Below, piece after piece: positions 8,662 through 48,127 of a stretch of 64,000 nucleotides of DNA. The notes beneath the pieces were generated by a model, which did not search any database, was not told where the DNA came from, and was given only the letters and a program-made list of their open reading frames with translations. The stretch is from a virus. Taxonomy: Duplodnaviria > Caudoviricetes. The stretch lies in the IMG/VR virus record IMGVR_UViG_3300027286_000002; one strand, 5' to 3'. A program made the translations under genes and the position numbers. The number at the start of each line of letters is the position of its first letter. The first letter of the stretch is position 1.

Positions 8662-9081
8662 ATGAAATACCTTGCCTGCTTTTTATTCTTTCCCTTATAT
8701 ACTTTTGCTCAAGAAGATAAAGACTACCTTTTATCACCTTTGATTTTTCAACATGAAAACCAACTTGCTAAAACTGCTGAAACCATTAAAGAATCTGCCA
8801 AAGTAGATCTCAGTAGCCTTGCCATATTACCTTTCTTAAATGATAATGTTAAGAAATTAGAAAAACTACTCGTTGAAAAAGATAACCTGCTTAGAGAAAA
8901 AGATGCTGAAATTTTAAGACTTATCCAAGTCAATAACCAAATTGCTATCGAAAAGAAAGAATGTGAAGTAGATTTTAAACACTGTAAAAATGGAAACTAC
9001 CTACAATTAGGTGTATCAGGTTTAGCTACTGTTGCTACTGTTGTCACCAGCTTTGTTTGTTATCCTTCTAATCCTAATTAA
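8662..9081 (+). CDS. Exported coiled-coil protein with C-terminal hydrophobic segment
   Basis: Signal peptide MKYLACFLFFPLYTFA, heptad-like middle, hydrophobic C-terminus. Confidence 0.55.
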   Translation: MKYLACFLFFPLYTFAQEDKDYLLSPLIFQHENQLAKTAETIKESAKVDLSSLAILPFLNDNVKKLEKLLVEKDNLLREKDAEILRLIQVNNQIAIEKKECEVDFKHCKNGNYLQLGVSGLATVATVVTSFVCYPSNPN

Positions 9082-10057
9082 AGATGTGTGCTTGACTTTC
9101 TGCATATGCTTGATTACTAATCTCTACCCACTTTGCTGTTAATTGCAATTCTCTAATATTCCTTGCTCCACTATAGCTTAATCCACTCTTAATATTAATT
9201 GCTATCTCATCTAATATATCTAACACTGATCCTTTGTAATTCACTTGATGACTTACACCTTCTACTGATCTTACATTTCCTCGCCATTGAGATTGTGCTT
9301 CTTTACTTGCCATACCTACATACTTCTTATATTTATTACCTTGTTCATCTGTATGTACTCTACCCGGGGCTTCATCTGTACCTGCTAAATATGAACCTAA
9401 CATGACAAAATCTGCACCACCTGCCAAACACTTTACCATATCACCTGTTGTCTTAATTCCACCATCTGCAATAATAGGTTTTTCATATGTAGATTTAGCA
9501 CAATCAAAAACACTAGCTAATGTAGGAATACCATGTCCTGTTTGAATACGAGTAGTACAAATAGAACCACCACCTATACCTACACGAACTGCATCTGCAC
9601 CATGATCTATTAAAAACTCATATCCATCTTGTGTAGCTACATTGCCAGCTATTACATAAATGTCTTTATGTCTTGCTTTCAATTCTTTTAATGTATCACC
9701 TACGATTTTAGTATGACCATGTGCAACATCTAAACAAAAGGTTGTGATGCCTGCATTAATAAACTTGTCTATACTGTCTAGTTCATTACAGCCAAAAGCA
9801 ACACAGGCTTTATTAGCATTAAAAGAAAGATGAGTACGATCAACAATACTATTATATCTATGAATGATACCAAGACCACCTTTAGATTGCATTGCGATTG
9901 CCATCTCTGTTTCTGTGACAGTAGTCATTGGTGATGAGATAATAGGTAAAGCATATTTCTGATTACCAAGAGATGAACTTAAATCAATTTCATCTCTTGA
10001 TGCGATACTAGAATATTGAGGTGAAATGAGATAGTCATTGAAAGTCTTTAATAGCAT
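9074..10057 (-). CDS. IMPDH/GMP reductase family enzyme (CBS-less; GMPR-like flap)
   Basis: ISSPMTTV, CLDVAHGH, IAGNVAT, catalytic loop RVGIGGGSICTTR, IIADGGI, GMAS..EG. SD AAGGAG before the corrected start. Confidence 0.9.
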   Translation of the reverse strand: MLLKTFNDYLISPQYSSIASRDEIDLSSSLGNQKYALPIISSPMTTVTETEMAIAMQSKGGLGIIHRYNSIVDRTHLSFNANKACVAFGCNELDSIDKFINAGITTFCLDVAHGHTKIVGDTLKELKARHKDIYVIAGNVATQDGYEFLIDHGADAVRVGIGGGSICTTRIQTGHGIPTLASVFDCAKSTYEKPIIADGGIKTTGDMVKCLAGGADFVMLGSYLAGTDEAPGRVHTDEQGNKYKKYVGMASKEAQSQWRGNVRSVEGVSHQVNYKGSVLDILDEIAINIKSGLSYSGARNIRELQLTAKWVEISNQAYAESQAHIFN

Positions 10058-10131
10058 TTGTAGATACTCCTTTTTAAACAAAGAAATTATACATTGAAAA
10101 CAGATAAGACAAAATAAAAATATTTTTAAGT

Positions 10132-10162
10132 GAACTTGCAATTATTCTTATTCCTAAGTGTT
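10132..10162 (+). promoter_or_regulatory. Conserved bipartite motif copy 1 (GAACTTGCAAT-N14-AGTGTT)
   Basis: Same motif and spacing at 11943, 45201(-) and 45615(-). Lies upstream of a small-gene cluster. Confidence 0.6.
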
Positions 10163-12604: not shown

Positions 12605-15600
12605 CTAATTTTTCCTAAAGTACATCCTTGTAAATAAAACTAAAATACCTAACATCATTATCAAATTAGTCGCTTGATCTACATTTTGACAACTGCCACC
12701 TTGAAACTTTGTCTTTTTCGTATTCCCTTTATCTTCATACATCACAGGCACTAAATCATAATCCACCAATCTCATATCTCTTATCATCTGATCTATATCT
12801 ATTTGCTTATTTACTGCCATATCACTCACTGACATATCGCTTACATTCATATCACCTGCATTCACTAAATTATTGCCATTTAATACTCTTATCCTAAATG
12901 ACTGTTCTGTTCGTCCACCATCATACATATAATGATCATCTGCACCTTGATAATCTAATGCTATTAAATTTACACTTGCTTCTGTTCCTGCTAAATTACT
13001 AGGCACTTGCCACTCTAATCTAAATAAATTATCATCTATTTGCTCTACTGTCATTTCTGTTGGCGATCCTGCACCTAACTTCATCTCTATTAAATCAAAT
13101 GCTCCTTGATCTTTTACTCGTATATCATATTTATATGTCCTGCCTGCATATGCTATCATATCAGGTACACTTATAAACACAGGTGCTACATTTGATACAT
13201 GAACTCTAATCTTATTGTAATATCCATAAGGTGAAATCATCTTTATTGTGTAGATACCATCATCTTCAAATAAATAAGACACTTCTTCACCTTGCTTATT
13301 TGCCTCGTTTTCTAATAACCATAAATAATCACTTGTCAGATCCGATTCAAGATTACAATTTTCTAAATTCACTTTCGGATTGTCTAATTCTTCTGCACTT
13401 AAAATCACACACCTGCCTTCTTCACTTTGCACATTATCTACTGTTAATAACCATGACTGCACATCAATCTGTTTAATAACTTCTGTTGTTGTATTTGACC
13501 ACTCATCATAAATCAAAATCTTCACAGGTAATAAGCCTGCTCTCTGTGCTTCATATGTTTTACTGCCATTCCAACTTCTCTCTCTTTCAAGTATGCCATC
13601 CATCTCAAAGTCTATCGTATATAACAAATCATCCACATCAGGATCATCTGCTAAAACATTTAAAGAAATCATACCATCATCTTGCCATACCTGTACTTCA
13701 TTTACTTCTGTTGGATGATTGACCACCTGCACTTCTTTTGTAAATACTTCAGATTGCTTATTAGATGTGAAACCTTTGACCTTTATTAAATATGGTGTTT
13801 CTTTCCAAGCATATTTATGTTCTAAATAAGAATTAACAGTACCATCATTCCAATCTACTTCATAGCTTTGAAAATAAGTATCACTAATAACTCTTAAACT
13901 CACTACACCACCTACACCTATTTCAACATCTACATCTGAAATCACAGGTACAGGTGTAGGCTCAATATTTAAAGACACTTCTGTTTCTACATTTGACCAA
14001 AGATCTTTTACTTTAAGATATATTGTATGTTGCTGATTCACATCCAAATTAAAAATCTCTAAGTTCGTTCTTTCTTCATAGTCTTGATCTGCATTTACTT
14101 TCCAATAATACTTAAAAGCATTCGTATCAGGATCACTCGCATTAGCCACTATTAAATAACTACCACCTGCTAGTAAATGTTTATTAATGTTTAAGATTGT
14201 AGGTGCATCCACTATTTGAATTTGTGTTGAGATTGTAGTGTTTAAACCACTTGTATCTTTAACTGTGATTAAAGCAAGATAAGGTTCTGTTTGATATGGC
14301 AAATCAAAATCTAGTTTAGTAAATACTTGATCATGTACTCTCACTTCATAAGATAACTCATCACCATTTGGATCAGTAGCATCTACTACTAACCAGCATT
14401 TACCTGCATATCCAATAAGACTTGTTACTGCATTTATCACAGGTGGCAAGTTTTCCATAAAGTTTAAAGTTTCTAAATTTTTTGTAGCTTGTGATCCTAT
14501 ACTATCTATCACTCGCACACTTGGACTAAAACTACCATAGGATGAATATGTATAAACAAAAATGCCTGTGTTATTTACCATAGATGTACTACCATCACCT
14601 GCATTAAATTCATATTGCAAACTGTCATTATCCATATCAGTAGCATTTACAAAGACAGTTACTAGATTTGTATTCCGTGTTATATCTACATCTAAAATGA
14701 CAGGTGCTTGATTTCCTGTATCTATAATTGTTGTGTATTCTGTTGCTAATCCTAAATTGTCTTTTACCATAATGCTTACAGGTGTTGTATCACTGCTCGC
14801 TTTAAAGGTATATGTATTAAGACTGCTATTTACTACTTCTAAATATGCACTGTCATTTATATCTATAGTATAGATTAAACTACTTGCTTTCTCAAATGAA
14901 TAAGGTTTACTAACTGTTTCACTAGCATCTGAACCATCAAAAGCATTTAAAGTAAAAATACCTGTACCTGTGCTTAATATATATGGTGTTATATATGGTG
15001 GTGTATCTATAACAATATTGTCATTAAAGGTTGCTGTGATAAATGGATCATAATCTGTAATCGTAGCTAAGGCTCTCACTTCTATTAAAGGATTTGGTTG
15101 TGCATAAACTTGAATCTCATAAAATCCATTTCCTTGTTTTTCTATTTGCACGGATGAAATGATAGGATTTAGATTTCTATGTTCAACTGAAATCTCTTGA
15201 ATGACAGGTGGAAGGTTTGGCACTTCGATATAAATGTTTTTTGTTGAAACAAGACCACCTGCATCTGTGGCTGTGATTTTAATCGTATCTACTCTAAATC
15301 CATCACCTATAGGAATATATTCATAAATGCCTGTGGAAATCTCATTTAAACTGCCTTGTCCTGATAAGACTTCTACTTGATAAGACACACTTAAAGATTC
15401 AGGATCAAATGATTGGTTAAGATTAATAAGATTATTAAGAACATCTTCTACAATGACAGGTGGCTGTGTATTTGGCAAGATATTAACAATTACAGATCCA
15501 AAGCTACATAAAGAGCAATCTGTTTTTTCTACACCATCAAGACAAGCATCTGTCCATTGACCATCATCACAAATTTTAAAAGGTATAGAAATCTTAGATA

Positions 15601-17710
15601 AGTTATTAGGTACTAGATAAGACGATTCGCTTGTAGTAAAAACTCCATCAAGGTTTGAATCAAATTCCACAGAAGAAATAAAATCTTTAGGATGGTTTGG
15701 ATAAGGATCTTGATTGCTATCTGCATCATAAGACAGGTTAGCATTTAAAGTGATGGTTTGACCTGTATATCCTGTAAAGGTTTGAGCAATAGCAATAGGT
15801 GCATGGTTATATTTACTGATGCTTATAGATACTGCATTTTCATCATCTACAATACGATTAAGATTATCAATCGTTCTTAAAATGACTTTTTGTTTAATGG
15901 TTTGTCCCCAACTGACATCATTTGTATATGTATATGTAAATTTTTCATTTAGATCATTAGTAGTAAAATCCCATACGATCTCATTACTGTCTATCTTACC
16001 ATTCGCATTAAGATCTTCTGTTAATAAATCATCTACAACATTCCATTTAAATTGCACAATGCTAACTTCAGGATCAAGTGCATAAGACCATGAATGATCA
16101 AAAGTGACAGGTGTGTTAGGTGATATTAATTGTGGTGTTGCTTTGGCATAAGGTTGAACTTCTAACCATGATTGAATGATTTGAGTAATAACAGATGTTT
16201 TTTCATTAGTAGAGAAAGAACCTGCCCATAGCCAATTACCTGTCCAAGTCCAAGTCGCATTAGCTTGTTGTTTAGATGCACCATTAGAATTTTTAGTGGC
16301 ATTTTTACCTGTGAGAAAGAAATCTGTATATTCATTAGACCAATGAGTACCATTAGGTAAATAAGTTATTTCTGGCGAAAAAGATCTAAGACCTTTTGTA
16401 GAAGCATAGATGTAGTAAAGACCCCAATGGCTGTTATCAGTAACATACCAAGATTGGATAGCATTAATAGAAGCATTAACTTGTGCATTTGTATTTAAAT
16501 CCTCGTTTTCTGTCCAGCCATAACCAACAAGAGTATTACCTGCTAGTTTGCCATTACCATTTCCATCATAATAACATATACCATTTGGACAATAAAGTGA
16601 CAGCCAATCTCTTTGTTTTGTTTTAAAACTTTCATAATCTACATTATTAAATTTTCTTTTAAGAATACGAATGGCTTCAGGTGCCCAACCATTTGTTGAG
16701 GCATCGTCTGTAACACCTGCCATATTACTGCAAGTGTAAAACCATGCACCATCAGATGTAGTACATTGTAAAAGACCATCTATAATGTCTTGACCAATAT
16801 TTTTAAGATCATTGCCAAAAATACCTTGTCTACCTACAGGTGAAATATAAGATGAGTTGCCAAAATTTGCCAAAGGCTCAGACCATGCTGTTGATTCATA
16901 GCTAGACCAAAACCAAGCACTTAAATTATTAGTCGCAACAAATTCCATTCCTTTACCTGCATTACCTAATGTATCTGTATCTGTAAATCCTATGTTCTTT
17001 AATTGCATTGTAGATAAAATAGAATGTAGTCCACATTGAGTAAAGTGTCTATAATATGGATCATTATCTCTATTAAGACCAAAGCCATGTCCTCTTCTTA
17101 AAAAAACATTTAATGCCATACCTGTGGAATATAAAGTTTGATTACCTGCTACATAACAAAGATGTTCATTATGTCCAAGTGAATCATTGCCTTTATGGAT
17201 AGCTTGTCTAAATAAATACCATAAGGCTATATCTACTGCTCTACTAGAATAAATTTGTCTTGTAAGATTTAGGTTGCCATCGTTCGCTGTGCAATTTGCA
17301 TTTAAAGGATCATTATAGTAATTATCACAGATACGATCTACATGAATAAGAACAGGCATAGTAGCTGTGGCAATTTCACTGCCACAAGTCACTTCTACTT
17401 TAGGATAAATATAAGTATTACCTAAAGCATTAGGATATTGATATGCTAAATGTAAAGGTGCAAAAAATGAATTACCAGCGATTGATGTACTTGTTTCACT
17501 AGCATCATTAAAATCACCATCACCATTTACATCCCAACGATAAGAATAAGAGTTACATCCTTCAGCAATAGCTTGTAAATGAGTAGGTAAACCATTTACT
17601 GCGATATGTGGAATATCAGGATTAGATTGCACATAAGGAATAGTAGATACTTTAAGTTGAGCGAATGCAACATAAGGTATCAAGAGAAAAAGAAAAAATG
17701 TTTTGTTCAT
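12605..17710 (-). CDS. Giant exported PKD/Ig-repeat surface protein with MYXO-CTERM-like sorting signal
   Basis: Signal peptide MNKTFFLFLLIPYVAFA. Aromatic helical N-terminal domain. Many PKD/Ig-like repeats (N-x-x-P-V-I, A-x-D-x-D-x-D-x-L-x-Y, WNDG, GDG). DM-x-V-S-DM linker. GGSC + TM helix + RMYFRKN C-terminus. Confidence 0.75.
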   Translation of the reverse strand: MNKTFFLFLLIPYVAFAQLKVSTIPYVQSNPDIPHIAVNGLPTHLQAIAEGCNSYSYRWDVNGDGDFNDASETSTSIAGNSFFAPLHLAYQYPNALGNTYIYPKVEVTCGSEIATATMPVLIHVDRICDNYYNDPLNANCTANDGNLNLTRQIYSSRAVDIALWYLFRQAIHKGNDSLGHNEHLCYVAGNQTLYSTGMALNVFLRRGHGFGLNRDNDPYYRHFTQCGLHSILSTMQLKNIGFTDTDTLGNAGKGMEFVATNNLSAWFWSSYESTAWSEPLANFGNSSYISPVGRQGIFGNDLKNIGQDIIDGLLQCTTSDGAWFYTCSNMAGVTDDASTNGWAPEAIRILKRKFNNVDYESFKTKQRDWLSLYCPNGICYYDGNGNGKLAGNTLVGYGWTENEDLNTNAQVNASINAIQSWYVTDNSHWGLYYIYASTKGLRSFSPEITYLPNGTHWSNEYTDFFLTGKNATKNSNGASKQQANATWTWTGNWLWAGSFSTNEKTSVITQIIQSWLEVQPYAKATPQLISPNTPVTFDHSWSYALDPEVSIVQFKWNVVDDLLTEDLNANGKIDSNEIVWDFTTNDLNEKFTYTYTNDVSWGQTIKQKVILRTIDNLNRIVDDENAVSISISKYNHAPIAIAQTFTGYTGQTITLNANLSYDADSNQDPYPNHPKDFISSVEFDSNLDGVFTTSESSYLVPNNLSKISIPFKICDDGQWTDACLDGVEKTDCSLCSFGSVIVNILPNTQPPVIVEDVLNNLINLNQSFDPESLSVSYQVEVLSGQGSLNEISTGIYEYIPIGDGFRVDTIKITATDAGGLVSTKNIYIEVPNLPPVIQEISVEHRNLNPIISSVQIEKQGNGFYEIQVYAQPNPLIEVRALATITDYDPFITATFNDNIVIDTPPYITPYILSTGTGIFTLNAFDGSDASETVSKPYSFEKASSLIYTIDINDSAYLEVVNSSLNTYTFKASSDTTPVSIMVKDNLGLATEYTTIIDTGNQAPVILDVDITRNTNLVTVFVNATDMDNDSLQYEFNAGDGSTSMVNNTGIFVYTYSSYGSFSPSVRVIDSIGSQATKNLETLNFMENLPPVINAVTSLIGYAGKCWLVVDATDPNGDELSYEVRVHDQVFTKLDFDLPYQTEPYLALITVKDTSGLNTTISTQIQIVDAPTILNINKHLLAGGSYLIVANASDPDTNAFKYYWKVNADQDYEERTNLEIFNLDVNQQHTIYLKVKDLWSNVETEVSLNIEPTPVPVISDVDVEIGVGGVVSLRVISDTYFQSYEVDWNDGTVNSYLEHKYAWKETPYLIKVKGFTSNKQSEVFTKEVQVVNHPTEVNEVQVWQDDGMISLNVLADDPDVDDLLYTIDFEMDGILERERSWNGSKTYEAQRAGLLPVKILIYDEWSNTTTEVIKQIDVQSWLLTVDNVQSEEGRCVILSAEELDNPKVNLENCNLESDLTSDYLWLLENEANKQGEEVSYLFEDDGIYTIKMISPYGYYNKIRVHVSNVAPVFISVPDMIAYAGRTYKYDIRVKDQGAFDLIEMKLGAGSPTEMTVEQIDDNLFRLEWQVPSNLAGTEASVNLIALDYQGADDHYMYDGGRTEQSFRIRVLNGNNLVNAGDMNVSDMSVSDMAVNKQIDIDQMIRDMRLVDYDLVPVMYEDKGNTKKTKFQGGSCQNVDQATNLIMMLGILVLFTRMYFRKN

Positions 17711-17811
17711 ATATGGATCTACCTTTGTTAAGTTTAACAAAGGTTTAAAAATTTAATAATCATTAAAAGAATAACCTAATAGTAAACTTATTTTTCACAA
17801 AGGATATAAAA

Positions 17812-18672: not shown

Positions 18673-21600
18673 ATGGCAATTAAAAGAGCAAATGACGAAC
18701 AAGATGAAATCGTTGATAAAAAGACACTGCTAGATTTGAGCAGATTTCTTTTGATTTTAGATAGATGTGTAGAATTAGGTACAGAGATGCCTGCTGATTT
18801 ATTAGCAGAAGGTTTTGAACTATATCGTTTAAACATTAATGGCATCAATGAAATTGGTGGACTGTTTTTTGATGAGATTGTATCAACAGTACAAAAACTC
18901 AATCCACTTTACACTAAATATCGTTCAGCTAAAAAAACATACAGTTCTGAAAGTTTACAACTTAGAATAGGTTTAATTGAAAGCTGTTTTAGATATTTAA
19001 GTACAAACAGTGCAGAAATTCTCAAGTTTGGTGAAAATGATCCTTTAATGATCAATTACATTAAAGATATTAATCAAGGTGTGCTTGAAAAAAAGACCAA
19101 ACAAAGTTTGAAAAATTTGATCAATATTCCATCATTCTTATATTTAAAGACAAGTGCCAAATCACCTACATCTTGGATTAAGAAATTGATTGATGCTAAT
19201 ATTACCAATTCAAGTGAAGTGGAAAAATTAGATCAAATGATTGCGATCAAAGAAAGCTATATCAATATTGCTACTGAAATCAGAGAGTTTGATACAAAAG
19301 CTAGATCTTTAAATCCAAACACTAAAGAATATATTGATATTCAAGATGCAAGAAGAGAAAAACTTCAAGCACTCATCACTGAAATTTATGAAAATGAAGG
19401 TAAAGATGCTAAAAGTATTTTAAATTCTTTAACAAGCACCATTCACAGTACAGATACACATATCACTGAAACAGGTAAAAGATTAAATCTAACACCTGAA
19501 CAAGAACTTGCTATGACTGTAGAAGGTAAAGCAATCATCGCCGCAGGTGCAGGCTCAGGTAAAACTCGTGTTCTTGCAGGTCGTGTTGCATGGCTTATTA
19601 AAGAAAAAGGTGTACCTGCTAATAAAATCATGGCAACATCTTTTACTAGAAACTCTGCTATTGAATTAAAAGAAAGAATCCAAAAACCTGAATTTGCAGG
19701 TGAAGGTGCTATCTATGGTGATGGTTTTGGTACATCACATTCTATTGCATATAGAATTTTAATGAAGAATACCAAAGACAATAATAAAGTAGATCATGCT
19801 TTAGACGGCAAGTTAGTGGATATTGCTCTTAATCAAATTGAAATGTCACCTAATGTTCCTAAAAATCAAGTAGGCAAATTTTCTAATAAGCCTATGTTTG
19901 ATCAATATACAGAACAAGACATTAATAACTATATTCAGATCATCAATAACTTTATGGGATATGCTAACTATTTCATGAATGATCCAAATACAAATCCTCA
20001 AGAAAAACAAGTTTTAGCTAAAGATATTGCTCTCTTGAATGTCATTCAAAAAAATAAAATCTTGCCTTATGATCTAGATGCTAGTCAAAAAGAATATCTT
20101 AATAGCATGATCAATTCTGAAAGAGGCAAGAAAGTTTTTGGTAAATTACTTGCTCAAGATAAACTTGAGAATTTAGAAAGACTTCAAAAGTTTGGTAAAT
20201 CAAATAAAACATCTGCTAAAAACTTTGAAGATCTTGAAGCTGAAGCTGATAAAAGTGAAAAAGGTTTGCCAGCGAAAGACTCACCATATTTTAAAAATAC
20301 ACCTGCCAATATGTGGTTTAATTTAGGTTTAAATGGATCTGATATTGAAGTTCAAAAGAACATTTTAAAGAATAATAAATTGTTTCAAGAATTATATAGT
20401 TTAGAAAAAGATATGGAAAACTACACAGATAAAAGACAATCTGATTGGTTTCATAAAAAAGTATCTCAATTTTACAACAATGTAATGTCTGTAAAACAAG
20501 TTAAAGAAATGTTGCCACCTAACTTTCTTAATAATGCTTTAGTCGCAGTCTATGGTGCTTATTTATGGCTTAAAGAAAATGATACTACATTTAGAGGTTA
20601 TTGCAGTGGTGATGACCAACTTGTTAAGACCATTGGATTACTTGTAAAGAAACCTGCTCTTTTAGCATCTTTACAAAGACAATATTCTCATATCATGGTG
20701 GACGAAGCACAAGACTTAAATCAATCTCAACATATCTTCTTTGGTTTAATTGCAGGCACTATCAATCCTGCGAACTTAATGCAATATACAGATGATGAAA
20801 TGCAACTCGTTGTGAAAGATCAAAATAAACCTGATGTTAAATCTAAAGTTTATGGTCGCATGAGAGCAGAATCTTATGTTTTGATTGGTGATGATAAACA
20901 AGCGATTTATGAATTTAGAGGTGCTACACCTAAAGAATTTATTGGTAAATCTGATCTTCTTAATGGTGGTTTCCAAACTGCTATCATTCCTACCAATTTT
21001 AGAAGTGGTGGTGATATTGTAGATACTGCTAATAAACTCATCTCTTATAATGAACAAATTCCTATGACTTGTGTTTCTGTTCCAGCTAAAGGCACAGGTT
21101 CTATTTATTATGAAGTAACACCTGATACTACTTTTAATAGTGATGCTATTCGCTTAATAGAAGAAATTAAAACACATATTGAATTAGGTGGAAAAGCAGA
21201 AGATTATGGTGTTGCTACTAGATCTAAGAGAGAAGCATATCCTTTCTTATTGCAAGCATTAAAAGAAAAGATTCCTTTCCGATCACAAACCAATCCTTTA
21301 ATGAAAAGCAATTTTAAGAATGTATTCAAATGGCTAAATTTTATTAGTTTGCCTGATTCTGCTGTAGATGAACTTAATAACTATGTTTTAACTTTGCATA
21401 ACACAGGACCCACTTACTTTTTAGGTGAAAAGAACTTCAATGTTGTTGTTAGGGATTTATTGCAAAGTAAAAAGAATGTTAATCTCTTAACTGATCTTTC
21501 TGAGGATAATTTTCCTATCACTGAAACATCTGTTCGTAAAAATGTTGAAGTTTATCTTAGAACTCTTAAACAAGCTAGACGAATTACAGGTAGTCCTATA

Positions 21601-22242
21601 GATTGTTTTAATTCTTTATTGCTGTTAAAAGATCAAAAAAAGGTGATTGATAGAGCAACACAAAGAGAAAAACTTAGAGATTTCGCTGAAGCCTTTTTCC
21701 CAAAAACTAGATCAGATGGTGCAGAGGATGAGGAGGCTGAAGATACATCAGCAGATTTAGATATTATGAAATCTCTTATCAATTTTAGAGATAATCCAGC
21801 TATCACTACTTTAAGAGATGCGATGAAAGAAATTACTAAATATATTACTCAAGTCGCTGAAGCTAAAGAAAAGAATACAGGTATGCTTATTGACACCATG
21901 CACCAATGGAAAGGTTTGGAATGTAAAAACCTAACCACCATTTTCTCTAGTCAATTCCCAAGAGATAAAAAAGAAGAAATGACAGATAAAGAGCATGAAG
22001 CTGAAGTAGCATCTGAAAGACGATTAGCTTATGTTGCTCTTACTCGTGGTCAAGATTCTGTTAGAGTACTTGCTACTAATGTTAAGAGAACTTGGGATTC
22101 AGCTAATAAAACTTGGAAATATGTTACTGTTCCTGTATCAAGATTTATTGAAGAAGGCTGTATTCCACAAAAAGAATCTCAAGATAAGACATCTTCTCTT
22201 GATTTTTCAAATCTTATTCATGCTATGGTATTTGAAAAATAA
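18673..22242 (+). CDS. UvrD/Rep/PcrA-family SF1 helicase with large N-terminal extension and insertion
   Basis: AAGAGSGKT, VDEAQD, IGDDKQAIYEFRGA, TNFRS, TMHQWKGLE, ERRLAYVALTRG. Confidence 0.92.
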   Translation: MAIKRANDEQDEIVDKKTLLDLSRFLLILDRCVELGTEMPADLLAEGFELYRLNINGINEIGGLFFDEIVSTVQKLNPLYTKYRSAKKTYSSESLQLRIGLIESCFRYLSTNSAEILKFGENDPLMINYIKDINQGVLEKKTKQSLKNLINIPSFLYLKTSAKSPTSWIKKLIDANITNSSEVEKLDQMIAIKESYINIATEIREFDTKARSLNPNTKEYIDIQDARREKLQALITEIYENEGKDAKSILNSLTSTIHSTDTHITETGKRLNLTPEQELAMTVEGKAIIAAGAGSGKTRVLAGRVAWLIKEKGVPANKIMATSFTRNSAIELKERIQKPEFAGEGAIYGDGFGTSHSIAYRILMKNTKDNNKVDHALDGKLVDIALNQIEMSPNVPKNQVGKFSNKPMFDQYTEQDINNYIQIINNFMGYANYFMNDPNTNPQEKQVLAKDIALLNVIQKNKILPYDLDASQKEYLNSMINSERGKKVFGKLLAQDKLENLERLQKFGKSNKTSAKNFEDLEAEADKSEKGLPAKDSPYFKNTPANMWFNLGLNGSDIEVQKNILKNNKLFQELYSLEKDMENYTDKRQSDWFHKKVSQFYNNVMSVKQVKEMLPPNFLNNALVAVYGAYLWLKENDTTFRGYCSGDDQLVKTIGLLVKKPALLASLQRQYSHIMVDEAQDLNQSQHIFFGLIAGTINPANLMQYTDDEMQLVVKDQNKPDVKSKVYGRMRAESYVLIGDDKQAIYEFRGATPKEFIGKSDLLNGGFQTAIIPTNFRSGGDIVDTANKLISYNEQIPMTCVSVPAKGTGSIYYEVTPDTTFNSDAIRLIEEIKTHIELGGKAEDYGVATRSKREAYPFLLQALKEKIPFRSQTNPLMKSNFKNVFKWLNFISLPDSAVDELNNYVLTLHNTGPTYFLGEKNFNVVVRDLLQSKKNVNLLTDLSEDNFPITETSVRKNVEVYLRTLKQARRITGSPIDCFNSLLLLKDQKKVIDRATQREKLRDFAEAFFPKTRSDGAEDEEAEDTSADLDIMKSLINFRDNPAITTLRDAMKEITKYITQVAEAKEKNTGMLIDTMHQWKGLECKNLTTIFSSQFPRDKKEEMTDKEHEAEVASERRLAYVALTRGQDSVRVLATNVKRTWDSANKTWKYVTVPVSRFIEEGCIPQKESQDKTSSLDFSNLIHAMVFEK

Positions 22243-42530: not shown

Positions 42531-43592
42531 TTAAAGGATTGCAATACATCCACGATTTTCACCATAAGTATATCCTATCTTCTTAACACCTGTGTAATTT
42601 TGAATCCTTTTTAATAAACTTACTAATGGTTCTACACTACCATTCCACAATTCTTTAATTTCCCAAAAATCTTCTGCTGTTCTAATCTTTAAAACACCTA
42701 CCTGCACAGGTATATCTGTCTTTGTAATAATAAGTGTATCTACACCATTTACTTGTATTGCCTCTTTTAATAAATCTAAATCCAACCAACCTATCTTTCT
42801 AGGTCTACCTGTTGTTGCTCCATATTCTTTACCTACAGATCTATATTTCTCCGATAACTCTTCATCTAGTTCTTCAAACTCACCTGTACCTACTTTGGTT
42901 TCATAGATTTTAGCTACACCTATTACTTCATCTATTTGTTTATGACTTAAACGAGTAGAATAAAAGACTGCACCAATGGTTGTGCATGATGAAGTAACAT
43001 TGGGATATTCTTCACCCCATACATCTAGTCGATAACCTTGACAGCCTTCTAATAAAAGATCCATTGTAGATAAATGGTCTTGTAGAAACTTTTCTGCATC
43101 ACCTATATAATCTTTTAAAAGAACTGCATCTTCTGTGTAATCAAAAGATTGAAGCCAAGCATTAATATTCATGGCATCTCTTGCATAAAAATCTCTTAAA
43201 GCGGGACCAATACCTTTTGCAGTCGTACCTAACTTCGATTGGTATTTGGCTTTATCCTCTGCAATATGCCATGACATGACTACAGGACAATAAGGCGAAA
43301 TAATAAGAGATCCTTTCTGAACATTAAATTGTTTGATCTCTTCTACAAGCTGAATAGGATCTACCACTGTTGCTCTTGTAATAACATTAATAGCATTTGG
43401 ATTTAGAACACCACTAGGTAATAGATGCACTACAGACTTATTACCTTTTTCATCATAAATAGTATGTCCTGCATTTGCACCACCTTGAAAACGAACAACA
43501 ACAGGTTTATCTGCTTTAAAGCACAGATCATCTACAATCCTGCCTTTACCTTCATCACCATTTTGTAAACCTAGAATAACTTTGACTGCCAT
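42531..43592 (-). CDS. purA: Adenylosuccinate synthetase (compact form)
   Basis: GDEGKG, RFQGGANAGHT, HLLPSG, GTT.KGIGP, EGCQG..LD, YPNVTSS, EYGATTGRPR.IGWLD, TKTD. Confidence 0.93.
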   Translation of the reverse strand: MAVKVILGLQNGDEGKGRIVDDLCFKADKPVVVRFQGGANAGHTIYDEKGNKSVVHLLPSGVLNPNAINVITRATVVDPIQLVEEIKQFNVQKGSLIISPYCPVVMSWHIAEDKAKYQSKLGTTAKGIGPALRDFYARDAMNINAWLQSFDYTEDAVLLKDYIGDAEKFLQDHLSTMDLLLEGCQGYRLDVWGEEYPNVTSSCTTIGAVFYSTRLSHKQIDEVIGVAKIYETKVGTGEFEELDEELSEKYRSVGKEYGATTGRPRKIGWLDLDLLKEAIQVNGVDTLIITKTDIPVQVGVLKIRTAEDFWEIKELWNGSVEPLVSLLKRIQNYTGVKKIGYTYGENRGCIAIL

Positions 43593-47573: not shown

Positions 47574-47647
47574 TGCTCCTAACGAGATTTGAACTCGTGT
47601 TACTGCCTTGAAAGGGCAATGTCCTTACCTGACTAGACGATAGGAAC
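47574..47647 (-). tRNA. tRNA-Glu(TTC)
   Basis: Cloverleaf: acceptor GTTCCTA/TAGGAGC, anticodon arm TTGCC-CTTTCAA-GGCAG, T arm ACGAG-TTCAAAT-CTCGT. CCA not encoded. Confidence 0.93.
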
Positions 47648-47772
47648 TTATCTTTAAGTGCATATAGGTTTTTAATCCACATCCACTTAAAAACTTTTCA
47701 ACCAAACCCTAATAGATAACCTACAGGATTATGTTTGTTATACTCATTTCTTTTTCATCATGCAATATAAAA

Positions 47773-47916
47773 TTACATAATGTTTTCAATTTCTTTTTTC
47801 TCTACACGATTTAAAGGTTTTGGACTGCTTTTAGTATAGATCGCAACTAATAAACTTAAAACAATAATTGTAATTGCTGTGTAATTTGCTAGCTTTGAGA
47901 TTTGTGTGTTTGTCAT
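47773..47916 (-). CDS. Small single-TM protein (47 aa)
   Basis: MTNTQISKLANYTAITIIVLSLLVAIYTKS... with SD AAAGGA. Confidence 0.5.
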   Translation of the reverse strand: MTNTQISKLANYTAITIIVLSLLVAIYTKSSPKPLNRVEKKEIENIM

Positions 47917-47991
47917 TTTTTATGATCCTTTGGATTTGATTGGAAGGTATCTTTATTTATGACATAGTATTTTTAGTTATGCAAATATAAA

Positions 47992-48064
47992 TGGGTCGTT
48001 TGGGACTCGAACCCAAAACCTGAAGATTAAAAGTCTTATGATCTACCTATTGATCTAACGACCC
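47992..48064 (-). tRNA. tRNA-Lys(TTT)
   Basis: Acceptor GGGTCGT/ACGACCC, D stem GATC/GATC, anticodon loop CTTTTAA, T arm TTGGG-TTCGAGT-CCCAA. U27-C43 mismatch. CCA not encoded. Confidence 0.93.
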
Positions 48065-48127
48065 ATAGTCATAATGAATGGTCTTATGACTTGCGAAAAA
48101 ACTTAAAGCTATATCTCACTACCTAAA

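What the first reader, a model, noticed from the sequence alone, without database searches (positions are those of the whole stretch)
12605..17710. Phage-encoded 1.7-kaa cell-surface protein with a MYXO-CTERM-like sorting signal
Seen in sequence: Sec-type signal peptide, an aromatic helical N-terminal domain (possibly an alpha/alpha toroid), more than ten PKD/Ig-like repeats, a DM-x-V-S-DM low-complexity stalk, then GGSC (12689-12700), a TM helix and a basic tail. Established: G-G-x-C + TM + basic tail is the MYXO-CTERM signal of myxobacterial surface proteins such as the kin-recognition receptor TraA. Inference: the host is Myxococcota-like, and the phage displays its own giant adhesin on the infected cell through the host sorting pathway. 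Possible roles are superinfection exclusion, receptor masking or promoting cell-cell contact for spread. It is the largest gene in the window and is inserted antisense between plus-strand clusters.
Basis: partly seen in the sequence, partly recalled or inferred. Interest (0 to 1): 0.8.

Follow-up and report, generated by a model that had tools for sequence, protein, structure and literature searches.

The report
Jumbo phage carries myxobacterial surface receptor
A freshwater giant phage has captured a 1,701-residue cell-surface receptor, complete with its membrane-sorting tail, from one order of myxobacteria; in those bacteria the gene is paired with an outer-membrane partner in the manner of the TraA/TraB kin-recognition system, which points to the phage's likely host and suggests the phage changes how infected cells stick to their neighbours.

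Summary
Window 12605-17710 (-) encodes a 1,701-aa protein. It has a signal peptide, an Ig-like sandwich plus (alpha/alpha)6-toroid head, about 12 PKD/Ig-like domains, a disordered D/M-rich stalk, and F-Q-G-G-S-C + TM helix + basic tail.

NCBI's MYXO-CTERM HMM does not score the tail. That miss is not decisive:
- The HMM also misses 6 of 6 tails in the myxosortase-positive Myxococcota MAGs holding the nearest cellular homologs.
- It passes on the aligned tails of high-GC orthologs.
- A profile built only from phage tails finds other C-terminal tails in those MAGs.

Among the genomes searched, the family occurs in only one GTDB order of Myxococcota. There the gene lies next to, or is fused with, a TraB-like barrel/OmpA gene, so it is a TraA/TraB-like module with a new head. 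Eleven low-GC phage copies form one clade nested in that family. A 316-kb CheckV-complete relative also keeps a TraB-like partner with an eroded wall-binding domain, and has no myxosortase. dN/dS is 0.20.

Best reading: a host-derived receptor displayed through the host Sec/myxosortase/T2SS route. The host link and the role in infection remain inferred. First readers of this scan noted the same protein, without follow-up, on two other windows from a different genome.

The parts
12605..17710 (-). Complete CDS of the 1,701-aa receptor (stop codon 12605-12607)
   Evidence: ORF list and translation. The start matches homolog gene calls. dN/dS is 0.20 against L058.
17660..17710 (-). Sec-type signal peptide, residues 1-17, with predicted cleavage after A-F-A
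   Evidence: One of only two hydrophobic segments. All homologs have an N-terminal hydrophobic leader. No dedicated signal-peptide predictor was available.
17342..17656 (-). N-terminal Ig-like beta-sandwich of the head (residues 19-123)
   Evidence: AlphaFold2 model m4b84f52316f8, strands at model residues 2-105.
16163..17272 (-). (alpha/alpha)6 toroid of the head (residues 147-516), the most conserved part of the protein
   Evidence: Twelve helices in the model. VIA-align Z 19.1 to 1gsz and Z 19.0 to 8zg0. Identity is 51-54% to 72%-GC orthologs and 70-90% among close phages.
12881..15901 (-). About 12 PKD/Ig-like beta-sandwich domains (residues 604-1610)
   Evidence: All-beta model me2adf7ce5d3c. 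Pfam PKD_4 and PKD above cut-off at residues 1000-1078.
12902..13420 (-). Conserved membrane-proximal module (residues 1431-1603), a candidate docking site for the TraB-like partner
   Evidence: The second cluster of invariant columns in the 19-sequence alignment. The docking role is inferred by analogy with TraA/TraB (PMC12045341). The complex prediction gave no verdict.
12707..12871 (-). Disordered D/M-rich low-complexity stalk (residues 1614-1668)
   Evidence: pLDDT 26-31. dN/dS is relaxed to 0.66. Homologs have stalks of different composition at the same place.
12689..12706 (-). Sorting signature F-Q-G-G-S-C (residues 1669-1674); GGSC is at 12689-12700
   Evidence: G and C are invariant and F nearly invariant across homologs. 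It aligns with the G-S-S-C-x-C-D motif of orthologs that pass TIGR03901.
12629..12673 (-). C-terminal transmembrane helix (residues 1680-1694), with no charged residue and no proline
   Evidence: Hydropathy. Helix in the model.
12608..12628 (-). Cytoplasmic basic tail R-M-Y-F-R-K-N (residues 1695-1701)
   Evidence: Translation. Homologs end in K/R-rich or RRRR tails.

Best explanation
What it is. The gene is a host-derived cell-surface receptor. An ancestor of a clade of freshwater jumbo phages captured it once from one order of Myxococcota. In that order it is the TraA-like half of a two-gene TraA/TraB-like module: a surface receptor ending in a MYXO-CTERM tail, plus an outer-membrane beta-barrel/TSP3/OmpA partner.

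Shown here:
- the protein architecture;
- orthology of the tail to genuine MYXO-CTERM tails;
- restriction of the family, in the genomes searched, to one order whose tested members encode myxosortase;
- tight linkage, or outright fusion, with a TraB-like gene;
- one monophyletic phage clade nested inside the cellular family;
- a phage-encoded TraB-like partner in a complete relative;
- no phage-encoded myxosortase in that complete relative, this window or the held parts of the related phage contigs;
- purifying selection.

Inferred mechanism:
1. During infection the protein is exported by host Sec and held in the inner membrane by its C-terminal helix.
2. It is lipidated on Cys1674 and cut by the host myxosortase.
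3. The host type II secretion system moves it to the cell surface.
4. There it stands on a stalk of about 12 Ig-like domains and presents the sandwich-plus-toroid head.
5. Its membrane-proximal module docks on a TraB-like barrel, either the phage's own or the host's.

Because the phage partner has lost the peptidoglycan-binding motifs, the pair most likely works as a contact or adhesion device on infected cells, not as a full outer-membrane-exchange machine. The host is most likely a member of the donor order.
For: Architecture.

Tail:
- G and C are invariant.
- Orthologous tails pass TIGR03901.
- The phage-only tail profile finds 17 and 8 matches in G001 and G002, against 3 and 0 in two high-GC genomes of the same order.
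- The matches I checked are real C-terminal tails of unrelated ORFs with the same G-C-Q, spacer, TM, basic layout.

Myxosortase: the core model NF040914 scores 140 and 137 bits (cut-off 100) in G001 and G002. None of 14 control genomes passes the cut-off.

Distribution:
- All named carriers are Myxococcota.
- 29 of the 31 genomes of G001's order have a match at E <= 0.001, and about 20 have a full-length head.
- In a 301-genome sample of the phylum, only 11 genomes hit, all from that order.
- Only 23 cluster representatives out of 1.84 billion reach E <= 1e-30.

Phylogeny: the phage clade has 100/99 support. It sits inside a 100/100 clade with the G001 and G002 copies. The partner tree is congruent with this.

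Partner:
- NF033763 TraB is the best hit by far, at E 3e-71, 2e-58 and 1e-34.
- A partner gene is adjacent, divergent or fused in 15 loci.
- The phage partner P0022 in CheckV-complete G317 scores E 1e-106.
- Its relatives diverge in step with the receptor.
- Its OmpA motifs are eroded.
- TraB lacking its OmpA domain still gives adhesion but no outer-membrane exchange (PMC12045341).

Other:
- No myxosortase in G317, this window or the held parts of the related phage loci.
- dN/dS 0.20.
- Viral status: IMG/VR UViGs of 316 kb and 85 kb.
- The neighbours are replication and nucleotide-metabolism genes, not structural genes.
Against: - TIGR03901 does not score the phage tail. The basic tail has only R, R and K, not an Arg cluster.
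- Phage GC is 32%, against 44-75% in the donor order.
- There is no direct host link. A DNA search of window 1-40000 against all 31 genomes of the order matched only the gene itself, with no spacer-like hits.
- No partner gene lies in this window, and the rest of this phage's genome was not available.
- The complex prediction gave no verdict.
- Expression evidence is limited to four short RNA-library contigs, which could be DNA carry-over.
- The ligand of the head is unknown.
Confidence: 0.6

Rival explanations
1. The sorting route is the same, but the head is an enzyme, not a recognition domain. The (alpha/alpha)6 toroid cuts or modifies a surface glycan such as exopolysaccharide or the phage receptor. 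The protein would then be a surface-tethered receptor-destroying or matrix-clearing enzyme that prevents superinfection or virion trapping.
For: The toroid matches GH76 mannanases, cellobiose 2-epimerases and other glycan-active (alpha/alpha)6 enzymes at Z 13-16. More than 140 invariant columns in the head include many His, Asp, Glu, Arg and Trp residues. The head is far more conserved than TraA's variable domain would lead one to expect.
Against: The top fold matches are terpene cyclases and C3d/TED binding domains, so there is no assignment to a specific enzyme family. Pfam, NCBIfam and the PDB sequence search give no hit on the head. Obligate pairing or fusion with a TraB-like protein fits a receptor complex better.
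Confidence: 0.2
2. The host is not a myxobacterium and has no myxosortase. The gene is an old capture. Its tail now works only as a plain C-terminal membrane anchor that holds an exported protein at the inner membrane, facing the periplasm.
For: TIGR03901 is negative. There is a 12-40 point GC gap to every carrier genome. No spacer or other DNA link was found. The gene is fully ameliorated, with GC3 of 0.18, so the transfer is old.
Against: The G and C of the signature stay invariant through 11 diverged phage copies, while the surrounding stalk evolves freely. The phage tails resemble the lineage-specific tails of G001 and G002 more than those of high-GC relatives. The phages also retain the outer-membrane partner, which makes sense only if the receptor reaches the outer membrane.
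Confidence: 0.13
3. The protein is a virion component, a fibre or decoration protein rich in Ig-like domains, as in many large phages.
For: Ig-like and PKD domains are common on phage fibres and capsid decorations (established knowledge, not tested here). An archaeal virus tail protein (7xdi) appears among the toroid matches at Z 14.
Against: A cleavable signal peptide and a C-terminal TM anchor are conserved under purifying selection. Orthologs are chromosomal surface proteins of bacteria. The gene sits among helicase, methylase and nucleotide-metabolism genes, not in a structural module. There is no PHROG or phage-database match.
Confidence: 0.05

Closest known systems
TraA/TraB outer-membrane-exchange receptor pair of Myxococcus xanthus (PMC3325183, PMC12045341)
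   Same: The layout is the same: signal peptide, recognition head, rigid stalk, a second membrane-proximal module and a MYXO-CTERM tail. The gene is paired with a partner made of signal peptide, OM beta-barrel, TSP3 repeats and an OmpA domain. The partners here have TraB (NF033763) as their best NCBIfam hit, covering the barrel as well as the OmpA end.
   Different: The head is an Ig sandwich plus an (alpha/alpha)6 toroid, not PA14. The stalk is about 12 PKD/Ig domains, not Cys-rich TIGR04201 repeats. The head is conserved, not polymorphic. The partner scores 119-240 bits against a TraB cut-off of 700. The phage versions are unlinked, and the partner's peptidoglycan-binding motifs are eroded. 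Nothing shows that this family mediates membrane exchange.
MXAN_5598-type fusion: large adhesin, internal MYXO-CTERM, then OM barrel and OmpA (PMC11980579 discussion)
   Same: Three cellular members of this family (L006, L009, L038) have exactly this single-ORF layout. The tail runs in frame into the partner's signal peptide.
   Different: The phage gene is the unfused form. Sequence relatedness to MXAN_5598 was not tested.
MYXO-CTERM / myxosortase (MrtX, MrtC, MrtP) substrates (TIGR03901; 10.1101/2023.06.07.544157; PMC11980579)
   Same: Both have a tripartite tail at the extreme C-terminus with an invariant Cys, a TM helix free of charged residues and proline, a basic end and an N-terminal signal peptide. 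The orthologs' tails pass the model.
   Different: The phage tail and the tails of the mid-GC donor lineage fall below the model. They have a single Cys followed by Q/D/E, a Lys/Arg mix instead of an Arg run, and AT-rich codon usage. The gene is encoded by a virus that has no sorting enzyme of its own.
Thioester (TED) domain of alpha2-macroglobulin and complement C3, and class II terpene cyclases (fold level only)
   Same: They share the (alpha/alpha)6 toroid. As in A2M and C3, the toroid is combined with Ig-like (MG-type) sandwiches. Foldseek E is about 1e-7 to A2ML1, C3 and C5, and Z is 19 to squalene cyclase.
   Different: No conserved C-x-E-Q thioester motif is present (by inspection of the alignment consensus). 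The domain order differs. No sequence-level hit was found. There is no evidence of catalysis.
Mobile-element-borne social and surface determinants of myxobacteria (sitAI toxins on Mx-alpha prophages; traAB allele swapping, presumably by transduction; PMC10047993)
   Same: Mobile elements carry or move genes that change how myxobacterial cells interact with their neighbours.
   Different: The known cases are toxin cargo on temperate prophages, or transduction of host alleles. Here a jumbo phage lineage stably encodes its own diverged receptor and partner. I found no paper describing this.

Membership tests
MYXO-CTERM sorting domain (TIGR03901.2) | HMM score at or above the curated cut-off of 20 bits | tested here: not met
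   No hit at E <= 10 on the whole protein or on the last 40, 52 or 72 residues. The model also misses 6 of 6 tails from the myxosortase-positive MAGs G001 and G002 and the tails of P0014, P0017 and P0018.
MYXO-CTERM sorting domain (TIGR03901.2) | Tripartite tail at the extreme C-terminus: a signature with an invariant Cys, a TM helix without charged residues or proline, and a basic cytoplasmic cluster | tested here: met
   The tail reads F-Q-G-G-S-C, a 5-residue spacer, a 15-residue uncharged proline-free helix, then R-M-Y-F-R-K-N at the end of the protein. The Cys is invariant in 19 of 19 sequences. The basic cluster is weak: three basic residues, not Arg-rich.
MYXO-CTERM sorting domain (TIGR03901.2) | N-terminal signal peptide on the same protein | tested here: met
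   A hydrophobic leader at residues 3-21 with an A-F-A motif. It is conserved in all homologs.
MYXO-CTERM sorting domain (TIGR03901.2) | Homology of the tail to accepted MYXO-CTERM domains | tested here: met
   Full-length orthologs P0011, P0012 and P0019 score 29.8, 27.3 and 21.3 bits at the aligned position.
MYXO-CTERM sorting domain (TIGR03901.2) | Occurs in a genome that has a myxosortase and several proteins with the same tail | tested here: inconclusive
   The host is unknown. The donor-lineage MAGs G001 and G002 have a myxosortase core and many similar tails. The phage itself has no myxosortase and only this one tailed protein.
MYXO-CTERM sorting domain (TIGR03901.2) | Cys-dependent cleavage by myxosortase and T2SS-dependent surface display | not testable with these tools
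   This needs expression in a myxobacterium, or in E. coli with a co-expressed myxosortase, as done in PMC11980579.
TraA (outer-membrane-exchange receptor) | PA14-like variable domain as the head | tested here: not met
   No PA14 hit in Pfam. The head folds as an Ig sandwich plus an (alpha/alpha)6 toroid.
TraA (outer-membrane-exchange receptor) | Cys-rich tandem repeat stalk (TIGR04201) | tested here: not met
   No NCBIfam hit. The stalk is made of PKD/Ig-like sandwiches.
TraA (outer-membrane-exchange receptor) | Operon partner of the TraB type (OM barrel, TSP3, OmpA) | tested here: met
   This holds for the family and for a complete phage relative. NF033763 is the best hit of the partners. 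A partner gene is linked or fused in 15 loci. Phage partner P0022 is in G317. A partner was not found in this window.
TraB (NF033763, curated cut-off 700 bits), applied to the partner proteins | Score above the curated cut-off | tested here: not met
   The scores are 240, 198 and 119 bits. The partners are TraB-like homologs, not TraB equivalogs.
PKD domain (PF18911 / PF00801) | Pfam gathering score | tested here: met
   PKD_4 scores 40.3 bits against 27, and PKD scores 29 bits against 23.5.
Alpha2-macroglobulin / thioester-containing proteins | C-x-E-Q thioester motif at the start of the toroid, and the MG-domain order | tested here: not met
   The resemblance is at fold level only. No conserved CxEQ is present in the alignment consensus. 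No Pfam A2M or TED hit was found.

The most novel reading that the evidence does not exclude
A clade of jumbo phages equips infected myxobacterial cells with a complete, phage-specific TraAB-like contact apparatus: its own receptor plus its own barrel partner, stripped of wall anchoring. Infected cells would then selectively adhere to other cells, or transiently share outer membrane with them. That would be a virus-encoded cell-cell recognition system, used to spread, to pool resources among infected cells, or to cut infected cells off from the host's own kin network.
Probability: 0.2. Interest if true: 0.9.

Novelty: new variant of a known kind. Interest (0 to 1): 0.68.

Why it matters
- It gives a concrete, testable host prediction for an uncultured clade of freshwater jumbo phages whose DNA turns up in riverine and lake metagenomes from about 19 studies. 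The predicted host is one order of Myxococcota.
- It appears to be the first case of a virus encoding a substrate of the myxosortase (MYXO-CTERM) surface-sorting pathway together with a TraB-like outer-membrane partner. I found no paper describing this.
- It defines an uncharacterised TraA/TraB-like module with a new toroid head in Myxococcota.
- It shows that the standard MYXO-CTERM model is blind to a mid-GC lineage that does possess a myxosortase.
- If the pair mediates cell contact, phages would be manipulating bacterial social recognition, which links phage biology to the evolution of kin discrimination.

Tried and rejected
- Complex prediction of the phage membrane-proximal module (A5) with the barrel and TSP3 part of the L040 partner (A6) scored 0.01. 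This is no verdict, and counts neither for nor against binding.
- A direct host link through DNA or spacer matches failed. Window 1-40000 against the 31 genomes of the donor order matched only the head-coding part of the gene itself. Bases 40001-64000 and the rest of the phage genome were not searched, because no whole genome is held.
- NCBIfam on the whole protein gave no family. The PDB profile search of the head returned only a chance hit.
- tblastn against 50,697 phage records found no match.
- A single-protein scan of genome contigs found nothing. The scan using the alignment worked.
- PHROGs on the neighbouring genes was almost empty.
- The promoter and terminator scan stayed below the shuffled expectation and was uninformative.
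- PF03237 terminase, intended as a positive control in G317, gave no hit. The viral status of G317 therefore rests on the IMG/VR and CheckV classification.
- A thioester or A2M reading was rejected because there is no conserved CxEQ. A class II terpene cyclase reading was not pursued: it is a fold-level match only, and the protein is extracellular.
- I looked for other MYXO-CTERM-like tails in the window and in G317/G318 and found none.
- For RNA evidence, three metatranscriptomes gave only four in-gene contigs of 150-260 nt at 93-98% identity. DNA carry-over and the bias in how the runs were chosen prevent any conclusion.
- The ESM Atlas gave only unnamed or PKD clusters as leads.
Full report
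**The gene**

The ORF at 12605..17740 (-) is the largest in the window. Homolog gene calls begin at the Met encoded at 17710, which gives a 1,701-aa product. The gene lies antisense between plus-strand ORFs. Its GC (0.328; GC3 0.18) matches the window (0.314), so it is fully ameliorated.

**Architecture**

- The protein has only two hydrophobic segments: an N-terminal signal peptide and a C-terminal helix.
- AlphaFold2 on an 18-sequence alignment (pLDDT 75.5, pTM 0.81) folds residues 19-565 into an Ig-like sandwich followed by a 12-helix toroid.
- A Foldseek-independent search gives Z 19.1 to squalene cyclase, 19.0 to drimenyl diphosphate synthase, about 16 to GH76 and 13.5 to C3d.
- Foldseek ranks alpha2-macroglobulin, C3 and C5 first. 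The best AFDB clusters (TM 0.63-0.66) are other "PKD domain-containing" proteins with the same two-domain head.
- No CxEQ thioester motif is conserved.
- The rest of the protein is all-beta, about 12 sandwich domains, with Pfam PKD hits above cut-off. It ends in a disordered D/M-rich stalk and a terminal helix.
- GGSC lies exactly at 12689-12700.

**The tail**

I do not regard this as decisive, for five reasons:

- The model's author describes it as short and lineage-dependent, needing species-specific rebuilding (10.1101/2023.06.07.544157).
- The tails of full-length orthologs P0011, P0012 and P0019 pass at 29.8, 27.3 and 21.3 bits, at the aligned position.
- MAGs G001 and G002 hold the nearest cellular relatives and encode a myxosortase core above cut-off (140 and 137 bits against 100; no control genome passes). 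Yet 6 of 6 of their tails fail the model.
- A profile built from the 11 phage tails alone finds 17 and 8 matches in G001 and G002, against 3 and 0 in two high-GC genomes of the same order. The matches I checked are true C-terminal tails of unrelated ORFs with the same layout: G-C-Q/D/E, polar spacer, TM helix, basic end.
- The G and C of the signature are invariant in all 19 aligned homologs, while the adjacent stalk evolves almost neutrally.

**Who carries the family**

- The head is rare. Among 1.84 billion cluster representatives, only 23 reach E <= 1e-30.
- Every named genome that carries it is Myxococcota.
- All of these genomes fall in one GTDB order of 31 species. About 20 of them hold a full head, and the best is G001 at 56% identity.
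- In a 301-genome sample of the phylum, only 11 genomes hit, all from that order.
- Low-GC copies (P0001-P0009, P0013, P0016) sit on phage-like contigs: a 300-kb contig with PolA, Hc1 and methylases; contigs with UvrD helicases in the same divergent arrangement as in this window; and two IMG/VR viral genomes, one of 316 kb rated 100% complete by CheckV.
- In an ML tree of the head, the 11 low-GC copies form one clade (100/99). That clade nests within a 100/100 clade containing the G001 and G002 copies. Compositional bias is a caveat.
- This phage's DNA is near-identical in riverine, lake and freshwater metagenomes from about 19 studies.

**The partner**

- In cellular loci the receptor is followed by a gene with an OmpA domain.
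- The best NCBIfam hit of that gene, by a wide margin, is the outer-membrane-exchange protein TraB (E 3e-71, 2e-58, 1e-34). The match extends over the barrel part, but it stays far below the curated cut-off of 700 bits.
- A partner gene lies downstream, upstream, divergent or fused in 15 loci.
- In L006, L009 and L038 the MYXO-CTERM tail runs in frame into the partner's signal peptide. This is the architecture described for MXAN_5598 and likened by its authors to TraA plus TraB (PMC11980579).
- The deep phage-like contig L040 has an orthologous partner two genes from the receptor.
- The complete phage G317, whose receptor is 81% identical to this one, has a partner (P0022) about 144 kb away from the receptor. 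It scores E 1e-106 to the partner profile.
- Relatives of P0022 at 81, 80, 67 and 65% identity mirror the receptor's divergence steps.
- The partner tree is congruent with the receptor tree.
- The phage partners have lost the GHTD and NRRV peptidoglycan-binding motifs. L040 is intermediate.
- No partner and no myxosortase lie in this window. G317 has no myxosortase either.

**Selection and expression**

Against the 94%-identical ortholog, dN/dS is 0.20 overall: 0.18 in the head, 0.20 in the Ig region, 0.21 in the tail and 0.66 in the stalk. Expression evidence is weak. Four short RNA-library contigs lie inside the gene.

**Mechanism**

Established for M. xanthus:
- MYXO-CTERM proteins are exported by Sec.
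- They are presumed to be lipidated on the invariant Cys.
- They are cut by the myxosortase MrtX in a Cys-dependent way.
- The type II secretion system then moves them to the cell surface (PMC11980579).
- TraA docks 1:1 on the TraB barrel. TraB without its OmpA domain still supports adhesion and foci, but not membrane exchange (PMC12045341).

By inference, the phage receptor uses the host's sorting machinery and pairs with a TraB-like barrel. Together they would form a contact or adhesion device on infected cells. The ligand of the head, and the benefit to the phage, are unknown. An enzymatic, glycan-directed head is the main alternative.

**Comparison and novelty**

The protein works like TraA but is not a member of that family, because neither the PA14 head nor the Cys-rich repeats are present. 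The tail is a lineage variant of MYXO-CTERM that the curated model does not reach.

I found no paper on phage-encoded MYXO-CTERM or TraAB-like genes. Known precedents are toxin cargo on prophages and traAB allele swapping, presumably by transduction (PMC10047993).

First readers of this scan flagged the same protein on two other windows from another genome, and flagged the eroded OmpA partner on two windows from another genome. None of these notes had been followed up.

Noticed in passing
window 42531-43592 (-): This 353-aa ORF hits phrog_1211, '2-aminooxy adenylosuccinate synthetase' (PurZ-type), at E 3.7e-73. With the GMP-reductase-like IMPDH-family gene at 9074-10141, it hints at modified purine (2-aminoadenine) metabolism or purine rerouting.
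   Followed up: no
L009:5935-13992, L006:5914-13968, L038:5947-13980: In three Myxococcota loci the receptor and the TraB-like partner are one ORF. The internal MYXO-CTERM tail runs in frame, with no stop, into the partner's signal peptide. MXAN_5598 has the same architecture (PMC11980579).
   Followed up: partly
L071:514-1941 (G317, about 88.2-89.7 kb): This is a phage-encoded TraB-like partner (P0022, 476 aa). Its OmpA domain has lost the GHTD and NRRV motifs. It lies about 144 kb from the receptor gene in a CheckV-complete 316-kb phage genome.
   Followed up: yes
L046, L047, L049, L050, L055, L057 (genomes G001 and G002): TIGR03901 misses 6 of 6 C-terminal sorting tails in two MAGs that encode a myxosortase core above cut-off. 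The curated model is blind to this mid-GC lineage.
   Followed up: yes
L005:2900-17589 and L040:1-17016: The two deep-branching phage-like contigs carry arrays of FGE-sulfatase-domain paralogs flanking the receptor gene, about 9 in L005 and 7 in L040. They also carry Hc1 histone-like, sigma-70, KilA-N and VapE-like genes.
   Followed up: no
window 47574-48065 (-): Two tRNA genes: Glu (TTC) and Lys (TTT).
   Followed up: no
window 18673-22242 (+) and L041:1731-9852: A large UvrD-type helicase sits divergently next to the receptor gene in this phage. It is duplicated in the relative L041.
   Followed up: no
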